This document shows, piece by piece, positions 14,698 to 39,394 of a stretch of 39,499 nt of DNA. The notes under the pieces were generated by a model, which was not told the origin of the DNA, ran no database searches, and saw only the letters and a list, made by a program, of their open reading frames with translations. The stretch's first letter is position 1, and every line of letters begins with the position of its first letter. The position numbers were made by a program, and so were the translations under genes. This stretch comes from Shigella phage SFP20, in the sequence record OQ031076. The stretch is one strand, 5' to 3'.

Positions 14698-14703
14698 GTG
14701 TTA

Positions 14704-14747
14704 GACTCAAGGTCATTACCACTATATGTAGTGGCCTTTATGATTAA
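14704..14747 (+). promoter_or_regulatory. putative RNase III processing stem-loop (R18.5 position)
   Basis: GACTCAAGGTCATTACCACTATATGTAGTGGCCTTTATGATTAAC: two-stem hairpin with conserved GACTCAAGG and GGCCTTTATGATTAAC flanks, repeated at other intergenic sites. Confidence 0.55.
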
Positions 14748-14801
14748 CACACACTACGAGCGGTGACGCTACGTGGATTCTGAGAAATGAGGAGGGCAAC
14801 T

Positions 14802-15251: not shown

Positions 15252-17011
15252 GTCAAGACTTAGCAGCGCGTCAGGCGCTTATGACTGCCCGTATGAAGGC
15301 AGACTTCGTGTTCTTCCTGTTCGTTCTGTGGAAAGCTCTGTCACTTCCTGTTCCGACTCGCTGTCAGATTGACATGGCGAAGAAGCTATCGGCTGGGGAC
15401 AACAGGCGCTTCATCTTGCAGGCGTTCCGTGGTATCGGGAAGTCCTTCATTACGTGTGCCTTCGTGGTCTGGAAGCTATGGAATAACCCGGACTTGAAGT
15501 TCATGATTGTGTCGGCCTCAAAGGAACGAGCCGATGCGAACTCAATCTTCATCAAGCGTATCATCGACCTCATGCCTCAGCTCCAAGAGTTGAAGCCTAA
15601 GCAGGGGCAGCGAGACGCAGTAATCAGCTTTGACGTAGGACCTGCCAAGCCTGACCACTCTCCTTCGGTTAAGTCCGTTGGTATCACTGGTCAGTTAACT
15701 GGTAGCCGTGCTGACATCCTGATTGCCGATGACGTAGAGGTCCCCGGTAACTCCGCTACTCAGGCAGCACGGGACCGACTGTCAGAGCTGGTGAAAGAGT
15801 TCGACGCAATCCTGAAGCCGGGTGGTACGGTTATCTATCTGGGTACTCCTCAGACCGAGATGACCTTGTATCGACAGCTTGAAGGTCGTGGTTACTCAAC
15901 TACCATCTGGCCTGCCCGCTACCCACGTGATGAGAAGGACTGGAAGTCTTACGGCGACCGTCTGGCCCCGATGCTTCAGGCCGAGCTTGAGTCCGACCCT
16001 GAGGGCTACTACTGGCTCCCTACCGATGAGGTTCGATTCGACGATGAGGACTTGAGGGAACGTGAGCTGTCTTACGGTAAGGCTGGCTTCGCTCTCCAGT
16101 TCATGCTCAACCCGAACCTTGGTGATGCCGAGAAATACCCGCTGAAGCTGCGTGACCTTATCGTAGCGGACTTGGACCCTGAGTCAAGCCCTATGGTCTA
16201 CCAGTGGCTCCCGAACCTTCAGAACAAGCGTGAGGACGTTCCTAACGTGGGACTCATGGGTGATTCCTACCACACGTATCAGACTGTAGGTTCTGCCTTC
16301 AGTTCGTACACCCAGAAGATTCTGGTCATTGACCCCAGTGGTCGTGGTAAGGATGAGACCGGGTATGCGGTACTGTATCAGCTCAACGGCTACATCTTCG
16401 TGATGGAAGCTGGTGGTATGCGCGGTGGCTATGAGGACTCTACGCTGGAGTCTCTGGCGAAGATTGGTCGCAAGTGGAAGATTAACGAGTACGTCATTGA
16501 GGGTAACTTCGGTGATGGTATGTATCTCGAACTCTTCAAGCCTGTGGCGGCTCGTATTCACCCGGCAGCAGTAACTGAGGTCAAGAGCAAGGGTCAGAAG
16601 GAACTACGCATCTGTGACGTTCTGGAGCCTATCATGGGGTCCCACAGACTCATCGTGAACTCCTCGACCATTGTGTCTGACTACCAGACTGCCGCTGACA
16701 AGGATGGCGTCCGTAACCCTATCTACTCCCTGTTCTACCAGATGACCCGTATCAGCCGTGAACGTGGGGCCTTGGCACACGATGACCGACTTGATGCTCT
16801 GGCTATCGGTGTACAGTTCTTCGTAGAGTCTATGGCTAAGGATGCCGTTAAGGGACAGCGTGAAGTCACCGAGGAGTGGCTGGAGGAACAGATGGAAGAC
16901 CCACGGAAAGGCTTTAAGTCCATCGAGACGGACTACTGGGACAATGGTGTCCGGGTCCAGTTCAATACAGATGATGACTTGGGCTTAGGGTCCTACGTAC
17001 AGTTCCACTAG
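15248..17011 (+). CDS. 19: terminase large subunit (gp19), apparent TTG start
   Basis: 587 aa; extensive identity to T7 gp19 ([134 protein letters not shown]). The track's first codon is TTG at 15248, preceded by RBS AAGGAGG. Confidence 0.95.
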
Positions 17012-17103
17012 CAGTTTGCATAAAGTACCGCTTTAGTTGCATGAATACGCACTATGTAAGTCGGTACATAACGCTCGTAACTCTATGTATTCCTTAGGAA
17101 AAT

Positions 17104-17126
17104 CTTATACCCTCACTATAGGAAAG
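17104..17126 (+). promoter_or_regulatory. phage RNAP promoter (phiOR position), CTTATACCCTCACTATAGGAAAG
   Basis: Promoter family match downstream of gene 19. Confidence 0.8.
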
Positions 17127-17301
17127 ACCCCCCGGTTACTTATAGTAAAGACTCAATGAATAATCATATGCACACTTTATGCAAGACCTTAGGAGGCAGA
17201 CTCCTGAGTTCTTACCTAAGGCTAGCACCGATGGAGAGGGTGATTGTAATCATCACACCCTCATAACTTAAGTAGACCCTAAGCGACAGGAGGTATGTAG
17301 C

Positions 17302-17460
17302 ATGGGTAAGACCAAAGCTGTTCTCAAAGCTCTGGCGATCAATAGAGCTACATACAGGTTTCTTGCTGCTGTTCTACTTGCTACTGGCGTTACTGCTGGA
17401 AGTCAGTGGGTCGGGTGGGTCGAGACTCTCGTATGTACTCTGGTGTCTGAGTGTAATTAA
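17302..17460 (+). CDS. 19.5: small hydrophobic protein (gene 19.5 position)
   Basis: 52 aa ORF (MGKTKAVLKALAINRATYRFLAAVLLATGVTAG...) with RBS GGAGG; below the 60-aa track cut-off; assigned by position. Confidence 0.55.
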   Translation: MGKTKAVLKALAINRATYRFLAAVLLATGVTAGSQWVGWVETLVCTLVSECN

Positions 17461-17492
17461 CGCCATCATGGTAACAATCAACGAAAGACGGA

Positions 17493-17534
17493 CCTAAGGT
17501 CAGTTCATAGCTGACGCTACTCTACTGACCTTAG
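17493..17534. repeat. perfect 10-bp inverted repeat (CTAAGGTCAG / CTGACCTTAG) with about 20-nt loop near the right genome end
   Basis: Read directly; no following T-tract, so not a typical terminator. Confidence 0.6.
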
Positions 17535-17697
17535 CTACTGTAGTCAAGGACTTTAGGTAACACCTTAAGAGAAGCTCACTTAGGGTCATCCTACTCACTG
17601 GTCTGCCCTAGTGTCGCCTGACCTACGGTCCTTGACCTACAGTGGCTGAGGCCTACAGTAGGGACGATGAGTTTTGGACCAAAAGTTTGAGACCACA

Positions 17698-17900
17698 TCT
17701 CACAGTTCAAGAACCTCAAGTCTCCCCATAGGCCCTCTTTCAGTCCAGACCAAAGGCCCTACCCCTAGACCTTCGGTCTAAACCTCAAGTCTTTGACCCG
17801 AAGTCGACCCGAAGTCTGGACCGATAGGGCCTATATCTTGTGGTTGGGACGATGGGTCGGGACTATATGTTGTGTCCTTGAGTCTCTATCTGTATCAGCC
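17698..17900. repeat. probable direct terminal repeat (collapsed to one copy) and physical genome end region
   Basis: TCTCACAGT at 17698-17706 matches the first bases of the T7 left end; CCTTGAGTCTCTATCTGTATC near 17875-17895 resembles the T7 TR end (CCTTGAGTGTCTCTCTGTGTCC). Boundaries approximate. Confidence 0.4.
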
Positions 17901-17905
17901 TCAAG

Positions 17906-18027
17906 TCATCACTACAGTCATCACTACAGTCATCACCTACAGTCAACCAGCCTACAGTCAATCCCTAAGTGATGGCCTACCTACAGTCACCAGACCTACA
18001 GTCAATAGACACCATGTCGACCTACAG
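17906..18027. repeat. array of short direct repeats ending in CCTACAGT (CATCACTACAGT x2, CATCACCTACAGT, and others)
   Basis: Tandem and dispersed ...CTACAGT units; positional analogue of the T7 left-end CCTAAAG repeat series. Similar units at 17620-17660 on the other side of the putative TR. Confidence 0.7.
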
Positions 18028-18241
18028 TTTATCAGAGTCCTAAGGTCTAGACTCACAGGTTATCACATCCGGTCCGTTTAGCAGTCAGAGACCATAGCTG
18101 ACTAGGGTTATTGTTGTTGGTGTCTGCCAACTGGACTCTTATTATCCATAGTCCAGACCTAAAGTCAATCACCTGTAGTCGATAATGGTCTTCCTTATAT
18201 AGTCACTGGACTACTGTATAAATTACCATGATAAATAGTTG

Positions 18242-18270
18242 TTGACAGTAGGTCTAACTTTTGGTTTAAT
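18242..18270 (+). promoter_or_regulatory. sigma70-type early promoter (A1-like): TTGACA, 17 bp, TTTAAT with upstream TG
   Basis: TTGACAGTAGGTCTAACTTTTGGTTTAAT; spacer contains GTCTAAC as in T7 A1. Confidence 0.6.
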
Positions 18271-18399
18271 AGCTTCCGTCAACACGACACGGCAACAACC
18301 GGATAGTGAAGACGCCGGGTCGGTCCGGTTAAGTAGTCAGCCTGTAAGACATACGAAAAACAGGCAACCGACAGCTAGGCGACTAGCGACAGAAAGTAG

Positions 18400-18429
18400 T
18401 TGACAAGATGTACCGACTTAAAGTAGTAT
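18400..18429 (+). promoter_or_regulatory. sigma70-type early promoter (A3-like): TTGACA, 18 bp, TAGTAT
   Basis: Downstream GTACCACATCGAAACGACAGTGAAG is nearly identical to the T7 A3 initial transcribed region (GTACCACATGAAACGACAGTGAG). Confidence 0.7.
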
Positions 18430-18554
18430 GTACCACATCGAAACGACAGTGAAGCCTAACACTGAAACAGGCTAGCGAGGCGACGACAGCCGAGCGAATG
18501 CTCTTTAACAATCTGGATAACTCTTAATGTGCGCCGATAATGCTAGTAAGCGAT

Positions 18555-18625
18555 TAACTCAAGAGACTTGTTGGCTACTGCGGGTCAGGCTCAAGATGAG
18601 CGCCTCAGGTCTCTTTCTGATAATC
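18555..18625 (+). promoter_or_regulatory. putative RNase III site upstream of gene 0.3 (R0.3 position)
   Basis: Preceded by CTCTTTAACAATCTGG, as in T7 upstream of R0.3; AACTCAAG ... TCTCTTTCTGATAATC flanks with internal inverted repeats (AGAGAC/GTCTCT). Confidence 0.5.
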
Positions 18626-18649
18626 ACTCACACTTAAAGGATACACATC

Positions 18650-19102
18650 ATGATTTACACTAACGAACCAGCCAACGTCTTCTATGTGCTCGTGTCTGCC
18701 GCTCGTGCTAACCTGTCTGATATGGCTAACATGGCCCGTCAGTTAGACCTTAAGGCACTGCTGCAAGCCGAACCTGAATACTACGGTGTGCTTGAATGCA
18801 CTGGGCTTACAGGCTGCTACCGCGAGGAGGGACAAGAGGTCGCCACTGAAGAGAGAACCTACCGTGTGCGCTGTGAGTCCAAGGCTCAAGCTATCAACGT
18901 TGCACGACTGGCCTGCAATGACTTTGAGCAAGACTGCGTGATGGTCTACAAGTCTCAGACTCACACGGCTGGACTGATGTTCTGCAAAGGCTTGGACGGG
19001 TTCAAGACCACACGTCTGAACGGGTCATTCCAGCAAGTCGATGCACCAAAGGGCGAATGCTTCACGAAAGACGCTGAAGGGCGCTTCTGGGAGGTGGTGT
19101 AA
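18650..19102 (+). CDS. 0.3: S-adenosylmethionine lyase/hydrolase (T3-type gene 0.3 anti-restriction protein)
   Basis: 150 aa; N-terminus MIYTNEPANVFYVLVSA... and motifs TGCYRE, VYKSQTHTAGL closely match my recollection of the T3 SAMase (about 152 aa); first early gene after the sigma70 promoters. Confidence 0.8.
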   Translation: MIYTNEPANVFYVLVSAARANLSDMANMARQLDLKALLQAEPEYYGVLECTGLTGCYREEGQEVATEERTYRVRCESKAQAINVARLACNDFEQDCVMVYKSQTHTAGLMFCKGLDGFKTTRLNGSFQQVDAPKGECFTKDAEGRFWEVV

Positions 19103-19103
19103 G

Positions 19104-19307
19104 ATGGTTAACTCATACCCTAATCACATCAAGCCATGGATAACGGTTGATATTGAGACCGTGGGCGACTCCAAGTTTGTGACCATACGGTCGAGCATAC
19201 ACGTTAACAAGGAGTTCAAACTTCCTCATAGCTATAGCCTGAGCTGGGGAGATTGGGAGATTCTACGGGATTCCGCTTTCCTCAAGTACGCCGGGAGGTT
19301 CTACTGA
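19104..19307 (+). CDS. hypothetical early protein
   Basis: 67 aa from the ATG at 19104 with RBS GGGAGGTGG; the track ORF 19041..19307 extends upstream into gene 0.3. Confidence 0.5.
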   Translation: MVNSYPNHIKPWITVDIETVGDSKFVTIRSSIHVNKEFKLPHSYSLSWGDWEILRDSAFLKYAGRFY

Positions 19308-19432
19308 TGTACACGATAAGCTACAGCAGTGAGCAAGCCTTCTATGACGGTCTAGTCGAGCTAATGAAGCGCGGGGCCTGCTACACGGCTAACCACCATG
19401 CGTTAACCATAACGCTGACAGGCGGGTACTGA
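19307..19432 (+). CDS. hypothetical small early protein (41 aa)
   Basis: ATG overlapping the upstream stop (TGATG); coding-like codon usage; below track cut-off. Confidence 0.3.
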   Translation: MYTISYSSEQAFYDGLVELMKRGACYTANHHALTITLTGGY

Positions 19433-19440
19433 GTGCCAGA

Positions 19441-19475
19441 CTACAGGTCATCCATGCGGGTGGCCTGACTGATTG
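19441..19475 (+). promoter_or_regulatory. putative RNase III stem-loop (R0.5 position)
   Basis: CAGGTCATCCATGCGGGTGGCCTGACTGATTG shares the AGGTCAT ... GTGGCCT ... TGATT pattern with the other candidate sites. Confidence 0.4.
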
Positions 19476-19505
19476 TCACTTAACCACAAGAAGGAAACAC
19501 ACGTA

Positions 19506-20240
19506 ATGAACGCACACGATAAAGTAATCATGAATAACCTGATGTCCCAGCTTCACGCTATCATCTGTCAGGCTGACTACAAGGTGGAGTCGCTGGGGTC
19601 TGGCATAGCTGCGCAAGACCGCTGGGGAGCCTTTGAGATACTGGCGAGGGAACATGGTTACAGGCTGTTAGGACTGGGACACTTCGCCGCTGCCTTTGAG
19701 CATGAGGACCTGCCGGGATATGCAATCAAGGTGGGCTTCAAGAAGGATGACTCAGGCGCTGCATATGCGGCCTTCTGCCGAGAGAATGAGGGTCTGGCTG
19801 GACTACCAATCATCCATCTGGTCAAGCGCTTCAGCAGGGCGTACATGGTGGCTATGGACAAGTACCGCTCACTGAATGACATCGGCGGGGGCTACTGCCG
19901 GGACGGTGAGACCTACGAGCAACGAGTCTTGAACGTGTCGTGGCGTGTAGTGAACGCAATAATAGACCAATGCGAGATGCCAGCCGCTGCACTGACTTGG
20001 TGGCTGGACAATGAGGCCCGACAAGAGTTTGCACACGTCGAGACCCAGTACATCAAGCAACTGGCGACCACAGCGCGTAAGATTCACACGTTCTTCTACG
20101 GTCTGGCGAGCTTCGACACTCACCGGGCAAACGTGATGGTCGATAACAACGGGCGCTTGATAATCACGGACCCGGTGTCTTGGACCTCAGCAGATCATCA
20201 AGACGACATGGCGAACAAGCTGAACGCAATAGCTGAATAG
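19506..20240 (+). CDS. 0.7: serine/threonine protein kinase (gene 0.7), kinase domain only
   Basis: Motifs shared with T7 gp0.7: GHFAAAFEH, IKVGFKKDDSGAAYAAFCR, ASFDTH, ITDPVS. 244 aa from the ATG at 19506 vs about 359 aa in T7; the basic C-terminal region is absent. Confidence 0.8.
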   Translation: MNAHDKVIMNNLMSQLHAIICQADYKVESLGSGIAAQDRWGAFEILAREHGYRLLGLGHFAAAFEHEDLPGYAIKVGFKKDDSGAAYAAFCRENEGLAGLPIIHLVKRFSRAYMVAMDKYRSLNDIGGGYCRDGETYEQRVLNVSWRVVNAIIDQCEMPAAALTWWLDNEARQEFAHVETQYIKQLATTARKIHTFFYGLASFDTHRANVMVDNNGRLIITDPVSWTSADHQDDMANKLNAIAE

Positions 20241-20309
20241 TGATAGACGAGAGGTCATCGAACGATAGGTGGCCTCAAAGATTATTACTTCAAACGATAG
20301 GTGAGAACT

Positions 20310-20507
20310 ATGATACCAATAGCACTGATAGTCATCGGCTATGGGCTGATACTCTGGGTCATCCTCCGGGACATCCAGAAGGCACGTAAAGTCTACAAAT
20401 TCAACTATGTGTCGCTCGGTCGCTGGACTGTGCGTCAACCAAACGGGCGCTTTATGCGTAACTTAGCGAATGTCTGGGACATCGCAACCTTAGGGAGCAA
20501 GCTATGA
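20310..20507 (+). CDS. hypothetical small membrane protein
   Basis: 65 aa with hydrophobic N-terminus (IPIALIVIGYGLILWVIL); ATG at 20310 within the track ORF 20301..20507. Confidence 0.5.
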   Translation: MIPIALIVIGYGLILWVILRDIQKARKVYKFNYVSLGRWTVRQPNGRFMRNLANVWDIATLGSKL

Positions 20508-20758
20508 GCTACAAACACAAGACCTCGCGTTACACCGTTCGTCAACAACAGGAGCGCGACCGGGTACTACAGGCAAGACTCCGGGCTGAGGGCCACAAGG
20601 CCGAGCTGATGTGTCTGGCATACGGTGGACGACCACGCACTGAAGATGGTAAACTTCTGGTCTCAGGCTGGAGGGCGATAGACCAGCGGTCAGCCATCCG
20701 TCACACGACTAAAGGCGACTTCAGTCACCTCCACGCTAACCCTTTGATATGCAAGTGA
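20504..20758 (+). CDS. hypothetical early protein
   Basis: 84 aa ORF with ATGA overlap with the upstream ORF; basic N-terminus. Confidence 0.45.
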   Translation: MSYKHKTSRYTVRQQQERDRVLQARLRAEGHKAELMCLAYGGRPRTEDGKLLVSGWRAIDQRSAIRHTTKGDFSHLHANPLICK

Positions 20759-20762
20759 TTTG

Positions 20763-20785
20763 AATATACCCTCACTAGAGGACTC
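20763..20785 (+). promoter_or_regulatory. variant phage-promoter-like element (CCCTCACTAGAGG) upstream of gene 1
   Basis: AATATACCCTCACTAGAGGACTC: one mismatch (TAGA for TATA) to the family consensus; followed by the GACTCAAGG motif. Confidence 0.4.
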
Positions 20786-20854
20786 AAGGTCTAAGACTTC
20801 AGTTAAAGACCAAAGAGACTTTAAGTGAAAGACTAACAAACAAGGACTTTAAGT

Positions 20855-23521
20855 ATGAGCGTCATTCAGCTTGAGAAGCACGACTTCTCGGACATCTCCA
20901 ACGCTATCGAGCCGTTTAACATTCTGGCTGACCACTACGGGCAGGACCTCGCAGTCAAACAGCTTCAGCTTGAGCATGAGGCATACACTGAAGGCGAGCG
21001 TCGTTTCATCAAGAATCTTGAGCGTCAGGCTGAGCGCGGGGAGCTGGCTGATAATCAGGTCGCAAGACCACTGATGCAAACTCTGGTCCCTAAACTGGCG
21101 CAAGCCGTCAAGGAGTGGCACGAGACCCAAGGGTCAACCCGTGGTAAACCTCAGGTCGCCTTCCTGAAGCTGAGCACTGAGTCGAAACCTCGTGCGCTAC
21201 TGGTCCAGCCTGAGTCGGTGGCGGTCATCGTCCTGAAGATTGCGCTCTCCAAGCTGGTCAAGCCTGAAGGCGTACCGATTACACCGATGGCCTCCGCGAT
21301 TGGTCGCACACTTGAGGATGAAATCCGCTTCGGTCGCATCCGTGACCAAGAGCAGGAGCACTTCAAGAAGACCATAGCCGAGAACCTGAAGAAACGCGCT
21401 GGCGTGGCCTACAAGAAAGCCTACATGCAAGCGGTCGAAGCCTCCATGCTGGACCAGAAGCAACTGGCTGATGCGTGGGGAACATGGTCGCCTGATGAGG
21501 CTGTACATGTTGGCATCAAGATGCTGGAGCTTCTCATCCAGTCCACACAACTGGTCGAACTGAAGCGCCACAACGCCGGGAACGCAGCGTCAGACGTCGA
21601 GATGGTCCACTTGTCGGACTTCTGGGCCAAGAAGATGGCACAGCGTGGCTACTCACTGGCAGGCATCGCCCCGGTTTACCAGCCTTGTGTCGTGCCTCCA
21701 CGTCCTTGGAACTCGGTGGTCGGTGGCGGGTACTGGGCTAAAGGTCGCAGACCTCTCCCGCTGATGCGCTTAGGGTCGAAGGCCGCTATCGCTCGCTACG
21801 AGGAAGTTTACATGCCTGAAGTCTACGAGGCAGTGAACATCATTCAGCAGACTCCTTGGAAGGTGAACAAGAAGGTTCTGGACGTAGTGAACATGGTCGA
21901 GAAGCTGAACAATACGCCTATCGCTGACATCCCACAGATGGACCCGATGAAACCTGAGGACTACAACGGGGAGACCGAGGAGGAGCTGAAGGCGTGGAAG
22001 AAAGCAGCCGCTGGAATCTATCGCCGCGAGAAGGCCCGACAGTCCCGCCGTTTGTCCCTGAGCTTCATCGTCGGACAGGCGAACAAGTTCTCTCAGTTCA
22101 AGGCCATCTGGTTCCCGTACAACATGGACTGGCGCGGTCGAGTCTACGCGGTCCCGATGTTCAACCCACAGGGCAACGACATGCAAAAGGGTCTACTGAC
22201 TCTGGCAGTCGGCAAGCCAATCGGTGCGGACGGATTCAAGTGGCTTAAGGTCCACGGTGCGAACTGTGCGGGTGTCGATAAAGTCACCTTTGAGGAGCGC
22301 ATCAAGTGGGTGGAAGACAACCATGACAACATTCTCGCAGCCGCGAAGTCTCCGATGGACAGCATCGACTGGTGGGGTCAGTTAGACTCTCCGTTCTGCT
22401 TCCTCGCCTTCTGCTTCGAGTATGCTGGAGTCATGCACCACGGGCTGAGCTACTCCTGCTCTCTGCCTATCGCGTTCGATGGGTCATGCTCTGGGATTCA
22501 GCACTTCAGCGCAATGCTTCGGGACCACGTTGGTGGACATGCGGTCAACCTGACGCCAAGCGGGAAGGTCCAAGACATCTACCGCATCGTGTCTGACGAA
22601 GTGGAGGAGCGACTCAAGGAGCTGCTGGTCAACGGTAGCGACAACGAAGTCAAGACCTTCGAGGACAAGAAGACTGGCGAGATTACTGAACGTCTCATCC
22701 TCGGGACCCGTGAGCTGGCCCGGCAGTGGCTGACCTACGGAATGTCACGCTCGGTCACTAAACGCTCTGTCATGACTCTGGCCTACGGGTCGAAGGAATA
22801 CGGGTTCGCGGACCAAGTGTTCGAGGACACCGTGATGCCAGCGATTGATGCAGGCAAGGGGGCGATGTTCACAGACCCGAGCCAAGCGTCTCGCTTCATG
22901 GCTAAGATGATTTGGGATGCAGTGAGCGTGACTGTGGTAGCTGCGGTGGACGCGATGAAGTGGCTGCAAGGCGCGGCTAAGCTGCTGGCTGCTGAGGTCA
23001 AGGACAAGAAGACCAAAGAGGTCCTGAAGCCGTGCCTCCCGGTTCACTGGGTCACGCCTGATGGCTTCCCGGTCTGGCAGGAGTACCGCAAGAAGGACAC
23101 CACACGTCTGGACCTGATGTTCCTAGGGACTTTCCGTCTGCAACCCACAGTCAACAAAGGGGCGAGCAAGGAGCTGGACAAGCACAAGCAGGAGTCAGGC
23201 ATCAGCCCGAACTTCGTCCACTCACAGGATGGCAGTCACCTGAGGAAGACTGTAGTCCACACTCACCGCAAGTATGGAGTCATGAGCTTTGCGGTCATTC
23301 ATGATAGCTTCGGGACCATCCCGGCAGACGCTGAGTTCCTGTTCAAGGGCGTCCGCGAGACTATGGTCGAGACCTACCGCGACAACGATGTGCTGCAAGA
23401 CTTCTACGAGCAGTTCGCGGACCAGCTTCATGAGACCCAGCGCGATAAGCTGCCTGAGTTACCGAAGCGTGGTAAACTGAACATTGAAGACATTCTGTCA
23501 TCTGACTTTGCATTCGCCTAA
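20855..23521 (+). CDS. 1: single-subunit DNA-dependent RNA polymerase (gene 1)
   Basis: 888 aa; extensive identity to T7/T3 RNAP (LADHYG, GERRF, RFGRIRD, LVELKRHNAGNA, QPCVVPP.PW, IWFPYNMDWRGRVYAVPMFNPQGNDM.KGLLTLA, DSPFCFLAFCFEYAG, FDGSCSGIQHFSAMLRD, RSVTKRSVMTLAYGSKE, HKQESGI.PNFVHSQDGSHLR, IHDSFGT, C-terminal SDFAFA). Confidence 0.98.
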   Translation: MSVIQLEKHDFSDISNAIEPFNILADHYGQDLAVKQLQLEHEAYTEGERRFIKNLERQAERGELADNQVARPLMQTLVPKLAQAVKEWHETQGSTRGKPQVAFLKLSTESKPRALLVQPESVAVIVLKIALSKLVKPEGVPITPMASAIGRTLEDEIRFGRIRDQEQEHFKKTIAENLKKRAGVAYKKAYMQAVEASMLDQKQLADAWGTWSPDEAVHVGIKMLELLIQSTQLVELKRHNAGNAASDVEMVHLSDFWAKKMAQRGYSLAGIAPVYQPCVVPPRPWNSVVGGGYWAKGRRPLPLMRLGSKAAIARYEEVYMPEVYEAVNIIQQTPWKVNKKVLDVVNMVEKLNNTPIADIPQMDPMKPEDYNGETEEELKAWKKAAAGIYRREKARQSRRLSLSFIVGQANKFSQFKAIWFPYNMDWRGRVYAVPMFNPQGNDMQKGLLTLAVGKPIGADGFKWLKVHGANCAGVDKVTFEERIKWVEDNHDNILAAAKSPMDSIDWWGQLDSPFCFLAFCFEYAGVMHHGLSYSCSLPIAFDGSCSGIQHFSAMLRDHVGGHAVNLTPSGKVQDIYRIVSDEVEERLKELLVNGSDNEVKTFEDKKTGEITERLILGTRELARQWLTYGMSRSVTKRSVMTLAYGSKEYGFADQVFEDTVMPAIDAGKGAMFTDPSQASRFMAKMIWDAVSVTVVAAVDAMKWLQGAAKLLAAEVKDKKTKEVLKPCLPVHWVTPDGFPVWQEYRKKDTTRLDLMFLGTFRLQPTVNKGASKELDKHKQESGISPNFVHSQDGSHLRKTVVHTHRKYGVMSFAVIHDSFGTIPADAEFLFKGVRETMVETYRDNDVLQDFYEQFADQLHETQRDKLPELPKRGKLNIEDILSSDFAFA

Positions 23522-23532
23522 GGAGGCACCTA

Positions 23533-23733
23533 ATGAAATTCGCACACAAAATCACCAACGTATCGGGTGGTAACAAGCTGGTAACTGTGACTGAGCACAA
23601 CGGTAAGGCGCTGGTCAAGGTGACAATGATTCCAGCCGGGACCGCCAAGCGTGTGGGCCTCACCCAGAAGGAGCTGGTCCAGAACGTCCAGTGGTCCCAC
23701 GAGAAGGCCCTTGAAGCTGGGGCAGCGAAATGA
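23533..23733 (+). CDS. hypothetical protein (between gene 1 and 1.1)
   Basis: 66 aa ORF with strong RBS TAAGGAGG; no recognisable motif. Confidence 0.5.
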   Translation: MKFAHKITNVSGGNKLVTVTEHNGKALVKVTMIPAGTAKRVGLTQKELVQNVQWSHEKALEAGAAK

Positions 23734-23807
23734 CAGACCTGAAGTGGCTGGCCTTATGGCTGGCCTTCCTTGCAGTATTCACCCTAATCCAACGACGCAG
23801 AGGCTAA
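23730..23807 (+). CDS. putative 25-aa hydrophobic peptide (MTDLKWLALWLAFLAVFTLIQRRRG)
   Basis: ATG overlaps the upstream stop (ATGA); single predicted transmembrane-like segment; very short. Confidence 0.25.
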   Translation: MTDLKWLALWLAFLAVFTLIQRRRG

Positions 23808-23812
23808 TAACC

Positions 23813-24268
23813 ATGTTCAACCGTAAACTGAAAGCACGTATCGCAGAACTTGAGTCCAACCTGACGAAAAGCGATGAGATGAACGACATAATGCGGCGTG
23901 ACAATCGCAGGCTTAAGGACAAGCTGGCGGTAGCCGACAAGAAGCGTGACCCTGAGCCGCTGCAAGTCAAGCGTATGGTCGGCCTTAAGTTCAAGGCGCT
24001 GTTCAATGGCCTCTATCAGCCTACCGAGTTCAAGACCGGGCCGGGACCATGTGGCAAGACGGTAACGCATTTCACCACGAGTCGTACCGAGCGTGAGCTG
24101 ACAATCCACCAGCACCACACGGATGGCTCCAGCAAGTCCTTCGAGTATCGACTGAGTGACATCGACGGTCGCATCCAGTACGACTATGAGAACGTGACAG
24201 TCTACGGAGAGGAGGCAGAACGTGAGCGCCTGATGTGGCGAGCAGCCCGTGTCGCCCGTTTCGCTTAA
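23813..24268 (+). CDS. hypothetical protein, 151 aa (N-terminal charged helix, C-terminal His-rich region)
   Basis: ATG at 23813 with RBS-like GCAGAGG upstream, within the track ORF 23651..24268; coding-like codon usage; unassigned. Confidence 0.5.
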   Translation: MFNRKLKARIAELESNLTKSDEMNDIMRRDNRRLKDKLAVADKKRDPEPLQVKRMVGLKFKALFNGLYQPTEFKTGPGPCGKTVTHFTTSRTERELTIHQHHTDGSSKSFEYRLSDIDGRIQYDYENVTVYGEEAERERLMWRAARVARFA

Positions 24269-24286
24269 ACCCTCACTATAGGATTA
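24264..24286 (+). promoter_or_regulatory. phage RNAP promoter (phi1.1 position), CTTAAACCCTCACTATAGGATTA
   Basis: Promoter family match. Confidence 0.8.
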
Positions 24287-24287
24287 A

Positions 24288-24327
24288 ACTCAAGGTCATC
24301 AGACTTCTGGTGGCCTTCATGATTAAC
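24288..24327 (+). promoter_or_regulatory. putative RNase III stem-loop (R1.1 position)
   Basis: ACTCAAGGTCATCAGACTTCTGGTGGCCTTCATGATTAAC; shares both flanks with the 14704 and 31548 sites. Confidence 0.55.
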
Positions 24328-24350
24328 CCTAAACTACTGGAGATTCAACC

Positions 24351-24530
24351 ATGTATCAGAATACCGTAAACTTTGAGCGCATCCGTGAACGTCAGCAGAC
24401 TGAAGGCTTCATGCCTAAGGGTCGCAAGCTGAACAAGACCAAGCGTGGCGGTGGCGTCAAGGGTGCTTTCCGCAATGCTGAAGGTAAAGACTCTCTGGTC
24501 AACCAAGAGAAATACTTCGTAGGAGCGTAA
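24351..24530 (+). CDS. 1.1: gene 1.1 protein
   Basis: 59 aa basic protein containing KGRKLNKTKR, as in T7 gp1.1; below track cut-off, found by manual translation. Confidence 0.7.
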   Translation: MYQNTVNFERIRERQQTEGFMPKGRKLNKTKRGGGVKGAFRNAEGKDSLVNQEKYFVGA

Positions 24531-29164: not shown

Positions 29165-29187
29165 TTTAAACACTCACTAAAGGGAGA
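29165..29187 (+). promoter_or_regulatory. phage RNAP promoter, T3-like variant TTTAAACACTCACTAAAGGGAGA
   Basis: Only copy with CACTAAAGGGAGA (T3-type -3..+6) and ACACT at -12..-8. Confidence 0.7.
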
Positions 29188-31530: not shown

Positions 31531-31548
31531 GCCCTCACTGTAGGATAG
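31526..31548 (+). promoter_or_regulatory. phage RNAP promoter variant, AATAAGCCCTCACTGTAGGATAG
   Basis: Family match with TGTA in place of TATA. Confidence 0.65.
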
Positions 31549-31588
31549 ACTCAAGGCCATTCACATCGAGTGGTCTTTATGATTAGAC
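31548..31588 (+). promoter_or_regulatory. putative RNase III stem-loop upstream of gene 5
   Basis: GACTCAAGGCCATTCACATCGAGTGGTCTTTATGATTAGAC; same flank motifs as the other candidate sites. Confidence 0.5.
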
Positions 31589-31603
31589 TATAGGAGATTA
31601 ACC

Positions 31604-38488: not shown

Positions 38489-39373
38489 ATGTCCCAATCA
38501 GTTTATGCCGAGTTCGGCGTTAGTCCTAATGCAATCACTGGTTCCGTTGAGGACCTGAACGAACACCAACAGTCTATGCTGGAGAAGGACGTAGCTGTCC
38601 GTGATGGCGATGATGCCATTACCTTCAAGCAACTGGAAGCCGAGCAACAGGAAGAGGCGACCGAAGAAGGCGAGAACGTCGAAGAGGCTGAAGGCGAAGA
38701 AACCGAAGGCAACGACGATGAGTCCGATACCGAAGGCGATGACCAAGAGTTCGTTGAGCTGGGCGAAACCCCGAAAGAGCTGACCGAAAGTGTAGCCGCT
38801 CTTGACGAGAATGAAGCTGCGTTCGACGACATGGTGTCTGCTGCTGTAGAAGCTGGTAAGGTTACTGCTGATGACATAGCCACTATTAAGGCTGAATACG
38901 CATCTAAAGGTGAACTGTCCGAGGCATCCTACGCTAAGCTGGCTGAAGCTGGATACACCAAGCGTTTCGTCGATTCGTTCGTCCGTGGTCAGGAAGCTCT
39001 GGCTGAGCAGTATGCTGCGGGTGTGGTTCGCTACGCTGGTGGTGCTGAGCAGTTCAACCGCATCCTGTCTCACCTTGAGGCCAACGATAAGTCAACCAAG
39101 GAAGCCCTTGAGTCTGCAATCATCCGTAAGGACCTTGCGACCGCTAAGGCCATCCTGAATCTGGCTGGTCGTAACCTCGGCAAGACCCGTGGCGTTGCAC
39201 CTCAGCGCACCCTGACGACCCAAGGTAAGCCAGCAGTCGCTGCACCGAAGGTCCAGACCGAAGGCTTCAGCTCCAAGGCTGACATGATTAAGGCCATGAG
39301 CGACCCGCGCTATCTGCGTGATGCTGCTTACACCAACTCTGTCCGCACGAAGGTTGCTGCTTCCAACTTCTAA
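38489..39373 (+). CDS. 9: capsid assembly (scaffolding) protein (gene 9)
   Basis: 294 aa; RDGDDAI, acidic central region, SYAKLAE.GYTK.F.DS..RGQEAL.EQY, DLAT.KAI.NLAG, IKAMSDPRY, C-terminal SNF as in T7 gp9. Confidence 0.93.
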   Translation: MSQSVYAEFGVSPNAITGSVEDLNEHQQSMLEKDVAVRDGDDAITFKQLEAEQQEEATEEGENVEEAEGEETEGNDDESDTEGDDQEFVELGETPKELTESVAALDENEAAFDDMVSAAVEAGKVTADDIATIKAEYASKGELSEASYAKLAEAGYTKRFVDSFVRGQEALAEQYAAGVVRYAGGAEQFNRILSHLEANDKSTKEALESAIIRKDLATAKAILNLAGRNLGKTRGVAPQRTLTTQGKPAVAAPKVQTEGFSSKADMIKAMSDPRYLRDAAYTNSVRTKVAASNF

Positions 39374-39394
39374 TATACCCTCACTATAGGGAGA
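39372..39394 (+). promoter_or_regulatory. phage RNAP promoter phi10 (major capsid promoter), AATATACCCTCACTATAGGGAGA
   Basis: Best match to the T7/T3 class III consensus (GGGAGA at +1..+6); followed by a leader and RBS AGGAGA at 39486-39491 that serves the ATG at window position 1 once the window is circularised. Confidence 0.85.

What the first reader, a model, noticed from the sequence alone, without database searches (positions are those of the whole stretch)
20763..20854. Promoter-like element and structured leader immediately upstream of the RNA polymerase gene
A one-mismatch copy of the phage promoter (CCCTCACTAGAGG) precedes gene 1, followed by GACTCAAGG and an inverted repeat (GGTCT ... 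AGACC). In T7, gene 1 is transcribed only by host RNAP. A functional phage promoter here would create positive autoregulation of the RNAP gene; alternatively it is a decayed promoter or part of an R1-type processing site.
Basis: inference. Interest (0 to 1): 0.45.

Follow-up and report, generated by a model that had tools for sequence, protein, structure and literature searches.

The report
Phage promoter before its own polymerase gene
The element is a real copy of this T7-like phage's own promoter sitting just upstream of its RNA polymerase gene, so the polymerase can probably boost its own synthesis. This arrangement is shared by the whole K1F-like phage group and is already annotated in some relatives, so it is a solid but ordinary finding.

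Summary
CCCTCACTAGAGG lies at 20769-20781, in the 96-nt gap between an 84-codon early ORF and gene 1 (RNAP, 20855-23521). It is the 12th member of the phage promoter family in this genome. It scores 25.6 bits in a matrix built without it, and nothing else outside the family exceeds 8 bits.

The window is a permuted Kayfunavirus (K1F-like) genome. All 21 Kayfunavirus or Caroctavirus loci examined carry a cognate phage promoter 75-100 nt upstream of gene 1. The promoter's specificity bases follow each phage's own promoter type across three classes: CCCTCACT, CTATCACT and GGTACACT. T7- and T3-like phages instead have the canonical R1 RNase III hairpin there and no promoter.

This argues strongly for a working promoter, hence positive feedback on gene 1, and against a decayed relic. 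The -2 T-to-G change is private to this genome: 0 of 50,697 phage records carry it, and all nine close relatives have T. In T7 the same change keeps about 39% of activity in vitro.

The leader is more conserved than synonymous sites. Its predicted structure is not statistically supported, and it lacks the 3' half of the canonical RNase III motif.

The kind is known: it is annotated as 'predicted promoter' in CR44b and CR8, and LUZ100 phi1 is an experimentally mapped analogue.

The parts
20763..20785 (+). Phage-RNAP promoter, positions -17 to +6 (AATATACCCTCACTAGA|GGACTC). It is the leftmost phage promoter of the genome.
   Evidence: It scores 25.6 bits in a matrix built without it, and no non-family site exceeds 8 bits. 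It is one of 12 family members, all on the + strand. An orthologous cognate promoter is present in all 21 Kayfunavirus/Caroctavirus loci.
20780..20780 (+). Predicted transcription start (+1 G), 75 nt before the gene 1 ATG.
   Evidence: Placed by register with the other 11 promoters. Relatives have +1 at -75/-76 or -81 from the ATG. This is an inference; the start was not mapped.
20778..20778 (+). Private substitution T->G at promoter position -2.
   Evidence: The 35-mer carrying G has no match in 50,697 phage records. The same 35-mer with T matches all 9 CCCT-type relatives exactly. The T7 -2G variant keeps about 39% of wild-type activity in vitro (PMC5937735 S2 File).
20780..20854 (+). 75-nt gene 1 leader, under purifying selection.
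   Evidence: Leader identity to relatives is 91-99%, against 65-83% at third codon positions of identical residues in gene 1.
20783..20817 (+). Inner hairpin CUC-AA-GGUCU...AGACC-AAA-GAG. It is present in both host- and phage-initiated RNA. It begins with the ACUCAAGGUC word shared with canonical RNase III sites.
   Evidence: Present in the predicted folds. The motif is shared with the sites at 14702, 24285 and 31546. There is no compensatory variation.
20772..20828 (+). Extended 57-nt irregular hairpin. It is possible only in read-through (host-RNAP) RNA. The promoter core UCACU (-8..-4) pairs with AGUGA (20824-20828), and the -2 G pairs with U20822.
   Evidence: It appears in the MFE in four Kayfunavirus leader types. 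P(paired) of -8..-4 is 0.89, the highest of the 12 promoters. Dev2/SFPH2-type phages have an exact 11-nt complement. MFE is -18.0 kcal/mol with G against -16.1 with T. The z-score is only about -1.3.
20842..20846 (+). Shine-Dalgarno AAGGA, 8 nt before the ATG.
   Evidence: Read directly from the sequence. The block AAGGACTTTAAGTATG is invariant in all Kayfunavirus leaders.
20855..23521 (+). Gene 1, the single-subunit RNA polymerase (888 aa).
   Evidence: ORF. It is 87-99% identical to Kayfunavirus RNAPs. Its specificity loop FRLQPTVNKGASKELDKHKQ is of the CCCT-promoter type.
20504..20758 (+). Upstream early ORF (84 aa, gp0.38/0.42-like). Its stop codon is 5 nt before promoter position -17, so the promoter is intergenic.
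   Evidence: ORF. Annotation of relatives.
18400..18429 (+). Best sigma-70-like early promoter candidate (TTGACA-18-TAGTAT). It would supply the first gene 1 transcripts.
   Evidence: Consensus scan (10 of 12 matches). The number of such hits in the region is no higher than in shuffles, so this is weak evidence.

Best explanation
The element at 20763-20785 is a working promoter for the phage's own RNA polymerase, placed 75 nt upstream of the polymerase gene.

Proposed sequence of events:
1. Host RNA polymerase starts at early promoters about 2.4 kb upstream, reads through the early genes and gene 1, and supplies the first polymerase molecules.
2. These molecules then initiate at G20780 and make further gene 1 mRNA. 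This is a positive-feedback loop that no longer depends on host transcription.
3. Transcription from this site continues rightward into the rest of the genome.

It is the leftmost phage promoter of the genome, about 3.1 kb from the physical left end. The arrangement is ancestral to the Kayfunavirus/Caroctavirus clade. In this genome the promoter carries a private T-to-G change at -2, which most likely makes it weaker without silencing it.

What is shown: family membership, conservation, co-variation with promoter type and RNAP specificity loop, intergenic position, and selection on the leader.

What is inferred: initiation at 20780, the feedback itself, and the size of the -2G effect.
For: - The candidate scores 25.6 bits in a matrix built without it. 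It is the 12th and last site above 8 bits in 79 kb of both strands.
- All copies are on the + strand and intergenic or at gene ends.
- All 21 Kayfunavirus-like loci have a repeated promoter word within 400 nt upstream of gene 1. None of 57 other Studiervirinae loci has a promoter-like one.
- The copy upstream of gene 1 matches each phage's own promoter type: AACCCTCACTATAGG (GW1, Ro103C3lw, Eclo_IJM), AACTATCACTATAGG or ..TAAAGG (K1F, PE3-1, Dev2, NS1, and others), and GGAAGGTACACTATAGG (CR8).
- The RNAP specificity loop and the N-terminal AT-rich-recognition region differ between these classes in step with the promoter type.
- The T7 -2G promoter variant gives 67.5 and 63.9 RNA/DNA reads, against a wild-type mean of 169, so about 39%.
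- No terminator-like site lies between 20780 and the ATG.
- The same element is annotated 'predicted promoter' in CR44b and CR8.
- In LUZ100, a phage-specific promoter directly upstream of the RNAP gene was mapped by ONT-cappable-seq.
Against: - No transcription data exist for this phage or, as far as I could find, for any Kayfunavirus.
- The -2G effect is extrapolated from T7 RNAP, which is roughly 60% identical to this enzyme, and from in vitro data.
- The substitution lies in the melting region and could hurt more here than in T7.
- The -2G could also be a sequencing error.
- Conservation of the promoter core could partly reflect its pairing in an RNA hairpin.
- Continued gene 1 transcription might be a side effect of a promoter whose real task is downstream transcription or DNA entry.
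Confidence: 0.75

Rival explanations
1. The region is chiefly an R1-type RNase III processing hairpin that separates gene 1 mRNA from upstream early mRNA. On this reading the promoter-like sequence is conserved because it forms the 5' arm of the stem, not because it initiates transcription.
For: - It occupies the position of T7 R1, and T7/T3-like loci have a canonical hairpin at that position.
- The leader starts with ACTCAAGGTC, the 5' word of the three canonical RNase III sites of this genome.
- Read-through RNA folds into a 57-nt irregular hairpin with about 20 bp that uses promoter bases -8..+2.
- P(paired) of the promoter core is 0.89-0.97 at this promoter, the highest in each genome.
- Dev2/SFPH2-type phages have an exact 11-nt complement of the promoter core at +45.
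- -2G or -2A pairs with U, whereas the consensus T does not.
Against: - It does not explain conservation of -17..-9, which lie outside the stem, or why -9/-10 and the upstream AT-rich part switch together with every other promoter of the genome.
- The 3' consensus GTGGCCTTnATGATT of canonical sites is absent.
- Fold z-scores are only -0.3 to -1.3.
- Variable columns are no rarer in paired positions (8 of 40) than in unpaired ones (12 of 52). There is no compensatory pair, one G-C to G.U change and one U-A to C.A change.
- Rfam finds nothing in the region.
Confidence: 0.06
2. In this particular genome the promoter is a decaying or inactive copy. The -2 T->G change has crippled it, and gene 1 is transcribed by host RNAP alone, as in T7.
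For: - The G at -2 is unique: 0 of 50,697 phage records carry it, and all 9 CCCT-type relatives have T.
- It removes an A/T pair from the region that must melt.
- It is the lowest-scoring site when scored with the matrix built from the other 11 sites.
Against: - It is a single change in 23 positions.
- Leave-one-out scores of two other conserved promoters (19.4 and 20.0 bits) are lower than the candidate's 25.6.
- Natural promoters in this genome and its relatives tolerate A, T or G at -2/-3 (TTTAGG, TAAAGG, TGTAGG).
- T7 -2G keeps about 39% activity, comparable with -2C at 48%.
- The -17..-3 sequence is identical to that of the strong GGGAGA promoter at 39372.
Confidence: 0.08
3. The promoter is functional, but its selected role is not autoregulation. 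As the first phage promoter to enter the cell, it lets the phage RNAP take over transcription-coupled genome internalisation and downstream class II transcription. It would thus serve as a substitute for the missing phiOL and for phi1.1-type promoters. Extra gene 1 mRNA would be a by-product.
For: - It is the leftmost phage promoter, about 3.1 kb from the left end, and there is no phiOL-like site between the end and gene 1.
- The next phage promoter is 3.5 kb further right, at 24281.
- No terminator is predicted between 20780 and 24281 on the + strand.
- T7 RNAP-driven DNA entry is established for T7 (own knowledge).
Against: - Any transcript starting at 20780 necessarily contains gene 1 with its conserved SD, so feedback follows whatever the selected role.
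- The two roles are not exclusive.
- Nothing here discriminates between them.
Confidence: 0.1
4. It is a host sigma-70 promoter, as annotated for the orthologous 23 bp in the phage PE3-1 record.
For: The GenBank record KJ748011 labels 2874-2896 'host RNAP promoter'.
Against: - That 23-mer is GACTTAACTATCACTATAGGACT, the phage's own promoter consensus.
- The sigma-70 scan finds nothing at 20700-20860.
Confidence: 0.01

Closest known systems
Orthologous 'predicted promoter' upstream of gene 1 in Citrobacter phages CR44b (Kayfunavirus, NC_023576, 1814-1836) and CR8 (Caroctavirus, NC_023548, 3356-3378). The same sequence occurs in K1F at 2473-2495 of NC_007456.
   Same: Same position: intergenic, between gp0.38/0.42 and gene 1, with +1 at 75-100 nt from the ATG. 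The leader is homologous (91-93% identity to K1F-type). The promoter is cognate to each phage's own RNAP.
   Different: This genome uses the T3-like CCCTCACT specificity class rather than CTATCACT or GGTACACT, and it carries a private G at -2. None of these promoters has been tested experimentally, as far as I could find.
Promoter phi1 of Pseudomonas phage LUZ100 (PMC10134795)
   Same: It is a phage-specific promoter directly upstream of the phage RNAP gene. The authors propose priming by host read-through followed by positive feedback.
   Different: The LUZ100 start site was mapped by ONT-cappable-seq, and the promoter is thought to be repressed by a MarR-like regulator in a temperate-like context. 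Here there is no mapping and no repressor, and the phage is a distant lytic relative.
Promoter phi-A8 of Vibrio phages phiA318/phiAs51 (PMC4099482)
   Same: It is a predicted phage-specific promoter upstream of the RNAP gene, and the authors suggest autoregulation.
   Different: It precedes the kinase gene plus the RNAP gene. It belongs to an SP6/K1E-like lineage with an unrelated promoter sequence. It is prediction only.
T7 R1 RNase III site, and T7-type RNase III sites in general
   Same: Same place, immediately upstream of gene 1. It shares the 5' word ACUCAAGGUC and forms an irregular hairpin of about 20 bp.
   Different: It lacks the conserved 3' half GUGGCCUUnAUGAUU that the three canonical sites of this genome have. 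It overlaps a promoter. Cleavage is untested.
Synthetic T7 'autogene' (T7 promoter driving T7 gene 1; Dubendorff and Studier 1991, own knowledge; used in PMC6395690)
   Same: The circuit logic is the same: a cognate promoter in front of the single-subunit RNAP gene gives self-amplifying expression once primed.
   Different: The autogene is engineered, whereas here the arrangement is natural and conserved. It is primed by host early transcription and is presumably restrained late in infection, for example by lysozyme-type inhibition (an inference).

Membership tests
T7-group (Studiervirinae) phage-RNAP promoter | A roughly 23-bp sequence (-17..+6) matching the genome's own repeated promoter consensus. 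| tested here: met
   25.6 bits in a matrix built from the other 11 sites. The next best non-family site is below 8 bits.
T7-group (Studiervirinae) phage-RNAP promoter | Specificity bases (-12..-8) cognate to the phage's own RNAP. | tested here: met
   ACCCT is identical to 9 of the other 11 promoters. The orthologous site switches to ACTAT or GGTAC in phages whose other promoters and RNAP specificity loops switch.
T7-group (Studiervirinae) phage-RNAP promoter | AT-rich upstream part (-17..-13). | tested here: met
   AATAT is identical to the promoter at 39372-39394.
T7-group (Studiervirinae) phage-RNAP promoter | TATA unwinding region (-4..-1). | tested here: inconclusive
   The site reads TAGA instead of TATA. 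The T7 -2G variant keeps about 39% activity in vitro. Other natural sites here have TTTA, TAAA and TGTA. The effect on this enzyme is unknown.
T7-group (Studiervirinae) phage-RNAP promoter | Same orientation as the genes, non-coding position, GG at +1/+2. | tested here: met
   The site is on the + strand, in the 96-nt gap 20759-20854, and starts GGACTC.
T7-group (Studiervirinae) phage-RNAP promoter | Initiation by the cognate RNAP. | not testable with these tools
   This needs in vitro transcription or 5'-end mapping.
T7-type RNase III processing site (R1) | Position between early genes, immediately upstream of gene 1. | tested here: met
   The site occupies the place of the canonical R1 hairpin of T7/T3-like loci.
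T7-type RNase III processing site (R1) | Conserved sequence CTCAAGG[TC]CAT...GTGG[CT]CTTnATGATT. | tested here: not met
   The 5' word CTCAAGGTC is present. The 3' word is absent, although it is present at 14733, 24312 and 31572.
T7-type RNase III processing site (R1) | Stable irregular hairpin of about 20 bp, supported by conservation or covariation. | tested here: inconclusive
   A hairpin at 20772-20828 with -18 kcal/mol is predicted in four leader types, but z is about -1.3. There are no compensatory changes, and variable columns are 8/40 paired against 12/52 unpaired. One clade has an 11-nt exact complement.
T7-type RNase III processing site (R1) | Cleavage by host RNase III. | not testable with these tools
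   This needs an in vitro cleavage assay or an rnc mutant.
Self-transcribed single-subunit RNAP gene (natural autogene, as LUZ100 phi1) | Cognate promoter upstream of the RNAP gene with no terminator in between. | tested here: met
   +1 is at 20780 and the ATG at 20855. No terminator-like site lies between them.
Self-transcribed single-subunit RNAP gene (natural autogene, as LUZ100 phi1) | Independent priming by host RNAP from upstream promoters. | tested here: inconclusive
   Sigma-70-like sites occur at 18400-18429, 17632 and 18514. Their number (6) is not above shuffles (5.3). No + strand terminator-like site lies between them and gene 1.
Self-transcribed single-subunit RNAP gene (natural autogene, as LUZ100 phi1) | Gene 1 mRNA with a 5' triphosphate end at the phage promoter during infection. 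| not testable with these tools
   This needs cappable-seq or primer extension.
Host sigma-70 promoter (PE3-1 annotation) | -35 and -10 hexamers with 16-18 nt spacing. | tested here: not met
   There is no hit in 20700-20860.

The most novel reading that the evidence does not exclude
The 23-bp promoter and the first 49 nt of the leader form one bifunctional DNA/RNA element.

As DNA, it is the promoter for the phage RNAP.

As RNA, it exists only in host-initiated read-through transcripts. There the promoter core (-8..+2) is the 5' arm of a 57-nt hairpin that is processed (by RNase III or otherwise) or that alters gene 1 translation or stability.

Host-made and phage-made gene 1 mRNAs would therefore differ in their 5' structure and fate. 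Position -2 would then be under two pressures, melting of the promoter and pairing in the stem. That would explain why this promoter alone carries A (Dev2/SFPH2 clade, with a perfect 11-bp stem) or G (this genome, with G.U replacing U.U and a gain of 1.9 kcal/mol).
Probability: 0.15. Interest if true: 0.5.

Novelty: new member of a known kind. Interest (0 to 1): 0.3.

Why it matters
T7 is the textbook case of a strict hand-over: host RNA polymerase makes the phage polymerase, which then transcribes everything else. A whole sister group, Kayfunavirus and Caroctavirus, with more than 200 sequenced phages including therapy candidates such as K1F, appears to have replaced the R1 processing site with a cognate promoter. 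This closes a positive-feedback loop on the polymerase gene.

That affects three things:
- how early-to-middle timing should be modelled in these phages;
- how their genomes should be annotated, since one record calls the element a host promoter and most do not annotate it;
- how K1F-type polymerase/promoter pairs behave when the native gene 1 region is cloned, because it would be self-activating.

The private -2G allele offers a natural weak/strong pair for testing how much feedback strength matters. None of this is conceptually new, because LUZ100 phi1 and the synthetic T7 autogene already exist.

Tried and rejected
- Rfam, E-value mode over 17000-24500, found nothing relevant.
- Folding the leader alone and a 191-nt context gave z-scores of -0.33 and -0.31, so there is no thermodynamic signal.
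- I tested covariation on 15 distinct K1F-type or GW1-type (CTAT- or CCCT-promoter) leaders. There were no compensatory pairs and no depletion of variation in stems. The structure claim is therefore left open.
- I looked for the -2G allele elsewhere:
  - an IMG/VR pattern scan gave 16 loci, all with TA or AA at that position;
  - a metagenome scan for CCCT-type leaders gave 0 hits;
  - a broader metagenome scan gave 39 loci, of which about 18 were Kayfunavirus and none had -2G;
  - a GTDB genome scan gave 4 unrelated chance hits;
  - a megablast of the 35-mer gave 0 hits.
- I tried to read the K1F genome paper (PMC1317022) and Chen & Schneider 2005 (PMC1275584) to see whether this promoter is described there. 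Neither is held. Prior description in those papers therefore cannot be excluded and is in fact likely.
- I searched for Kayfunavirus transcriptomes and found none.
- The sigma-70 reading from the PE3-1 annotation is rejected.
- I considered a minus-strand promoter formed by the 11-nt inverted copy in Dev2-type phages. I rejected it by inspection, because -11 to -17 do not match the consensus.
- I looked for a class II pause signal (ATCTGTT) in the leader and found none.

Full report
OBSERVATION. The sequence is as described.
- CCCTCACTAGAGG lies at 20769-20781.
- GACTCAAGG lies at 20781-20789.
- GGTCT (20788-20792) and AGACC (20807-20811) form an inverted repeat.
- The ATG of an 888-codon ORF is at 20855.
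- The preceding 84-codon ORF stops at 20758, so the element sits in a 96-nt intergenic gap.

The 13-mer with up to two mismatches occurs 12 times, always on the + strand, against 1.2 expected. The repeat finder returns the same 12 sites as one family. Eight sites read CCCTCACTATAGG. The candidate differs only by G for T at -2, counting G20780 as +1 by register with the others.

In a -17..+6 weight matrix built from the other 11 sites, the candidate scores 25.6 bits. Leave-one-out scores of the others range from 19.4 to 35.8 bits. No other position on either strand exceeds 8 bits. It is therefore a true member of the promoter family, not a chance match.

WHAT THE WINDOW IS. The region is 80-91% identical at the DNA level to Kayfunavirus (K1F-like, Studiervirinae) genomes. 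The closest are Escherichia phage Ro103C3lw, Cronobacter phage GW1, Shigella phage SFP21B and the Enterobacter Eclo_IJM phages. The window is a circular permutation of the genome. Position 1 of the linear Ro103C3lw record aligns to window position 17698.
- The promoter at 17121 is therefore a right-end (phiOR-like) promoter.
- There is no phage promoter between the left end and gene 1.
- The candidate is the leftmost phage promoter, about 3.1 kb from the end.

COMPARATIVE EVIDENCE. I fetched 80 loci around RNAP homologues from IMG/VR and several GenBank genomes. Every locus with an RNAP at least 79% identical carries a promoter-like element with +1 at 75, 76 or 81 nt upstream of the gene 1 ATG, or about 100 nt in CR8.

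In a blind k-mer test, 21 of 21 such loci had a word repeated at least three times in the locus within 400 nt upstream of gene 1. Among 57 other Studiervirinae loci (RNAP 59-64% identical; T7-, T3- and KP32-like), 52 had none. The remaining five had unrelated words. Those 57 loci show the canonical R1-type hairpin there instead.

The element follows each phage's own promoter type.
- In GW1-type genomes all promoters, including this one, read AACCCTCACTATAGG.
- In K1F-type genomes all read AACTATCACTATAGG.
- In CR8 (genus Caroctavirus) all read GGAAGGTACACTATAGG.

The RNAP specificity loop changes in step.
- GW1-type: FRLQPTVNKG[AGS]SKELD.
- K1F-type: FNLQPTVNKG[TMS]KKELD.
- CR8: QYRPTLNLGKSKEMD.
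- The N-terminal region that reads the AT-rich part also changes between classes.

A sequence that switches specificity bases together with the enzyme in three lineages, while its flanks stay homologous, is under selection as a promoter. That K1F and T3 loops confer orthogonal promoter choice has been shown experimentally (PMC4299498).

THE -2G ALLELE.
- The 35-mer 20766-20800 has no megablast match in 50,697 phage records.
- The same 35-mer with T at -2 matches all nine CCCT-type relatives exactly from -12 onward.
- No metagenome or IMG/VR copy has G at this position.

The change is therefore private to this genome, or it is a sequencing error.

For T7, a barcoded in vitro library gives RNA/DNA read ratios of 67.5 and 63.9 for TAATACGACTCACTAGAGG, against a wild-type mean of 169. 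That is about 39% of wild type. The -2A variant retains about 88% and the -2C variant about 48% (PMC5937735).

Natural promoters in this genome already vary at -2/-3 (TTTA, TAAA, TGTA). K1F-clade phages of the Dev2/SFPH2 type carry -2A at this very promoter. The upstream half, -17..-3, is identical to that of the GGGAGA promoter at 39372.

I conclude that the promoter is attenuated rather than dead. This is an extrapolation from T7.

THE LEADER. The 75-nt leader is 91-99% identical to K1F-type and GW1-type relatives. Third codon positions of identical residues in gene 1 are only 65-83% identical. The leader is therefore constrained.

Evidence against a defined structure:
- The leader alone folds no better than shuffles (z = -0.33).
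- A 191-nt context gives z = -0.31.
- Rfam finds nothing.

Evidence pointing toward a structure:
- If the upstream promoter bases are included, as in host-initiated read-through RNA, the minimum-energy fold in four leader types is a 57-nt irregular hairpin. In the window it spans 20772-20828 at -18 kcal/mol. Its outer stem is the promoter core UCACU (-8..-4) paired with AGUGA.
- The probability that -8..-4 are paired is 0.89-0.97 at this promoter, the highest of all promoters in each genome tested.
- In Dev2/SFPH2-type phages the leader is rearranged and contains an exact 11-nt complement of the promoter core, CTTTAGTGATA at +45.
- The -2G pairs with U20822. The computed minimum free energy is -18.0 kcal/mol with G, -17.6 with A and -16.1 with the consensus U.
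- The leader begins with ACTCAAGGTC. This is the 5' word of the three canonical T7-type RNase III sites in this genome (14702, 24285 and 31546), two of which also directly follow promoters.

Evidence against the hairpin being a canonical processing site:
- The 3' word of those sites (GTGGCCTTnATGATT) is missing.
- Fold z-scores are only about -1.3.
- Among 15 distinct K1F-type or GW1-type (CTAT- or CCCT-promoter) leaders, variable columns are as common in paired positions (8 of 40) as in unpaired ones (12 of 52).
- No pair shows a compensatory change. One stem pair changes to G.U and one to a C.A mismatch.

A processing or regulatory hairpin overlapping the promoter is therefore possible but not demonstrated.

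MECHANISM.
- Inferred from consensus hits only: host RNAP starts at early promoters, the best candidate being 18400-18429, and reads through the early genes into gene 1.
- Shown: no + strand terminator-like site intervenes between those promoters and gene 1.
- Inferred, and strongly supported by the comparative data: the first RNAP molecules initiate at G20780 and transcribe gene 1 again. This gives positive feedback that outlasts host shut-off and continues rightward for 3.5 kb to the next promoter at 24281.
- Inferred from T7 data: the -2G lowers the gain of this loop in this phage.
- Untested: read-through RNA, but not promoter-initiated RNA, can form the extended hairpin.
- Own knowledge, used only as context. 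T7 has phiOL upstream of its early region. T7 lysozyme preferentially inhibits weak class II promoters. T7 RNAP pulls the genome into the cell. A T7 promoter in front of gene 1 (the 'autogene') is self-amplifying.

COMPARISON WITH WHAT IS KNOWN.
- The orthologous element is annotated 'predicted promoter' in CR44b and CR8.
- It is wrongly annotated 'host RNAP promoter' in PE3-1 (rejected).
- It is implicitly listed among promoter repeats of phage Sparklingdew (PMC13298934).
- The K1F records carry no regulatory features.
- A phage-specific promoter directly upstream of the RNAP gene has been mapped experimentally in LUZ100, with a positive-feedback model (PMC10134795).
- One has been predicted in phiA318 (PMC4099482).
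- I could not read the K1F genome paper or Chen & Schneider 2005. They may already describe the promoter.

VERDICT. The promoter reading is well supported by comparative genomics, with a confidence of 0.75. The decayed-relic and host-promoter readings are unlikely. The processing-site reading survives only as a possible second function.

The finding is a new allele of a known, genus-wide arrangement. The clade-wide co-variation and the promoter/hairpin overlap are modest additions. Interest is 0.3.

Noticed in passing
window 29165-29187 and downstream to about 29215: The promoter AACACTCACTAAAGGGAGA deviates from the consensus at -10 and -2. It is identical from -13 to +4 (AACACTCACTAAAGGGA) in K1F-type and GW1-type genomes, so unlike all other promoters it does not co-vary with the specificity class. 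Its transcript begins with GGGAGAGGAC-UUCG-GUCUUUUCCC followed by UUUUGU, which is a 5' hairpin that looks like an intrinsic terminator.
   Followed up: no
window 14702-14750, 24285-24325, 31546-31590: There are three canonical T7-type RNase III sites (CTCAAGG[TC]CAT...GTGG[CT]CTTnATGATT). The second and third directly follow the phage promoters at 24281 and 31543. Promoter plus R-site thus forms a recurring cassette whose 5' part resembles the gene 1 promoter/leader.
   Followed up: partly
window 20780-20854: The leader contains six RGACY words at 20780, 20794, 20807, 20816, 20830 and 20844, with spacings of 14, 13, 9, 14 and 14 nt. It also contains a duplicated GACTTTAAGT (20817-20826 and 20845-20854). 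The first copy is followed by a three-codon mini-ORF, GTG AAA GAC TAA (20825-20836), which mimics the gene 1 ribosome-binding region.
   Followed up: no
L001 (KJ748011.1) 2874-2896: The PE3-1 GenBank record annotates the orthologous phage promoter as 'host RNAP promoter'. The sequence is the phage's own consensus, and no sigma-70 match exists at the equivalent window position.
   Followed up: yes
window 17698-18010: The physical left end of the genome maps to about 17698. The region holds short direct repeats (ACCTACAGTCAA-type, 17935-18006). It also holds a TATCTGTA word near 17885 that resembles the T7 concatemer-junction pause signal. There is no phiOL-type phage promoter between the end and gene 1.
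   Followed up: partly
L110, L115, L116, L118, L119, L124, L129, L135, L136, L138, L142, L143 (metagenome contigs): An unrelated repeated element..GGTTAGGG TCACTCAAGGACTCAAGGTCAT.., turns up in many environmental contigs that show no Kayfunavirus leader. I did not establish what it is.
   Followed up: no
L106 (OP272491.1, Enterobacter phage 02_vB_Eclo_IJM): In this record the RNAP, ligase, DNA polymerase and capsid genes are annotated as many short fragments. That suggests numerous frameshift errors in the deposited sequence. Single-base differences in such records should not be over-read.
   Followed up: no
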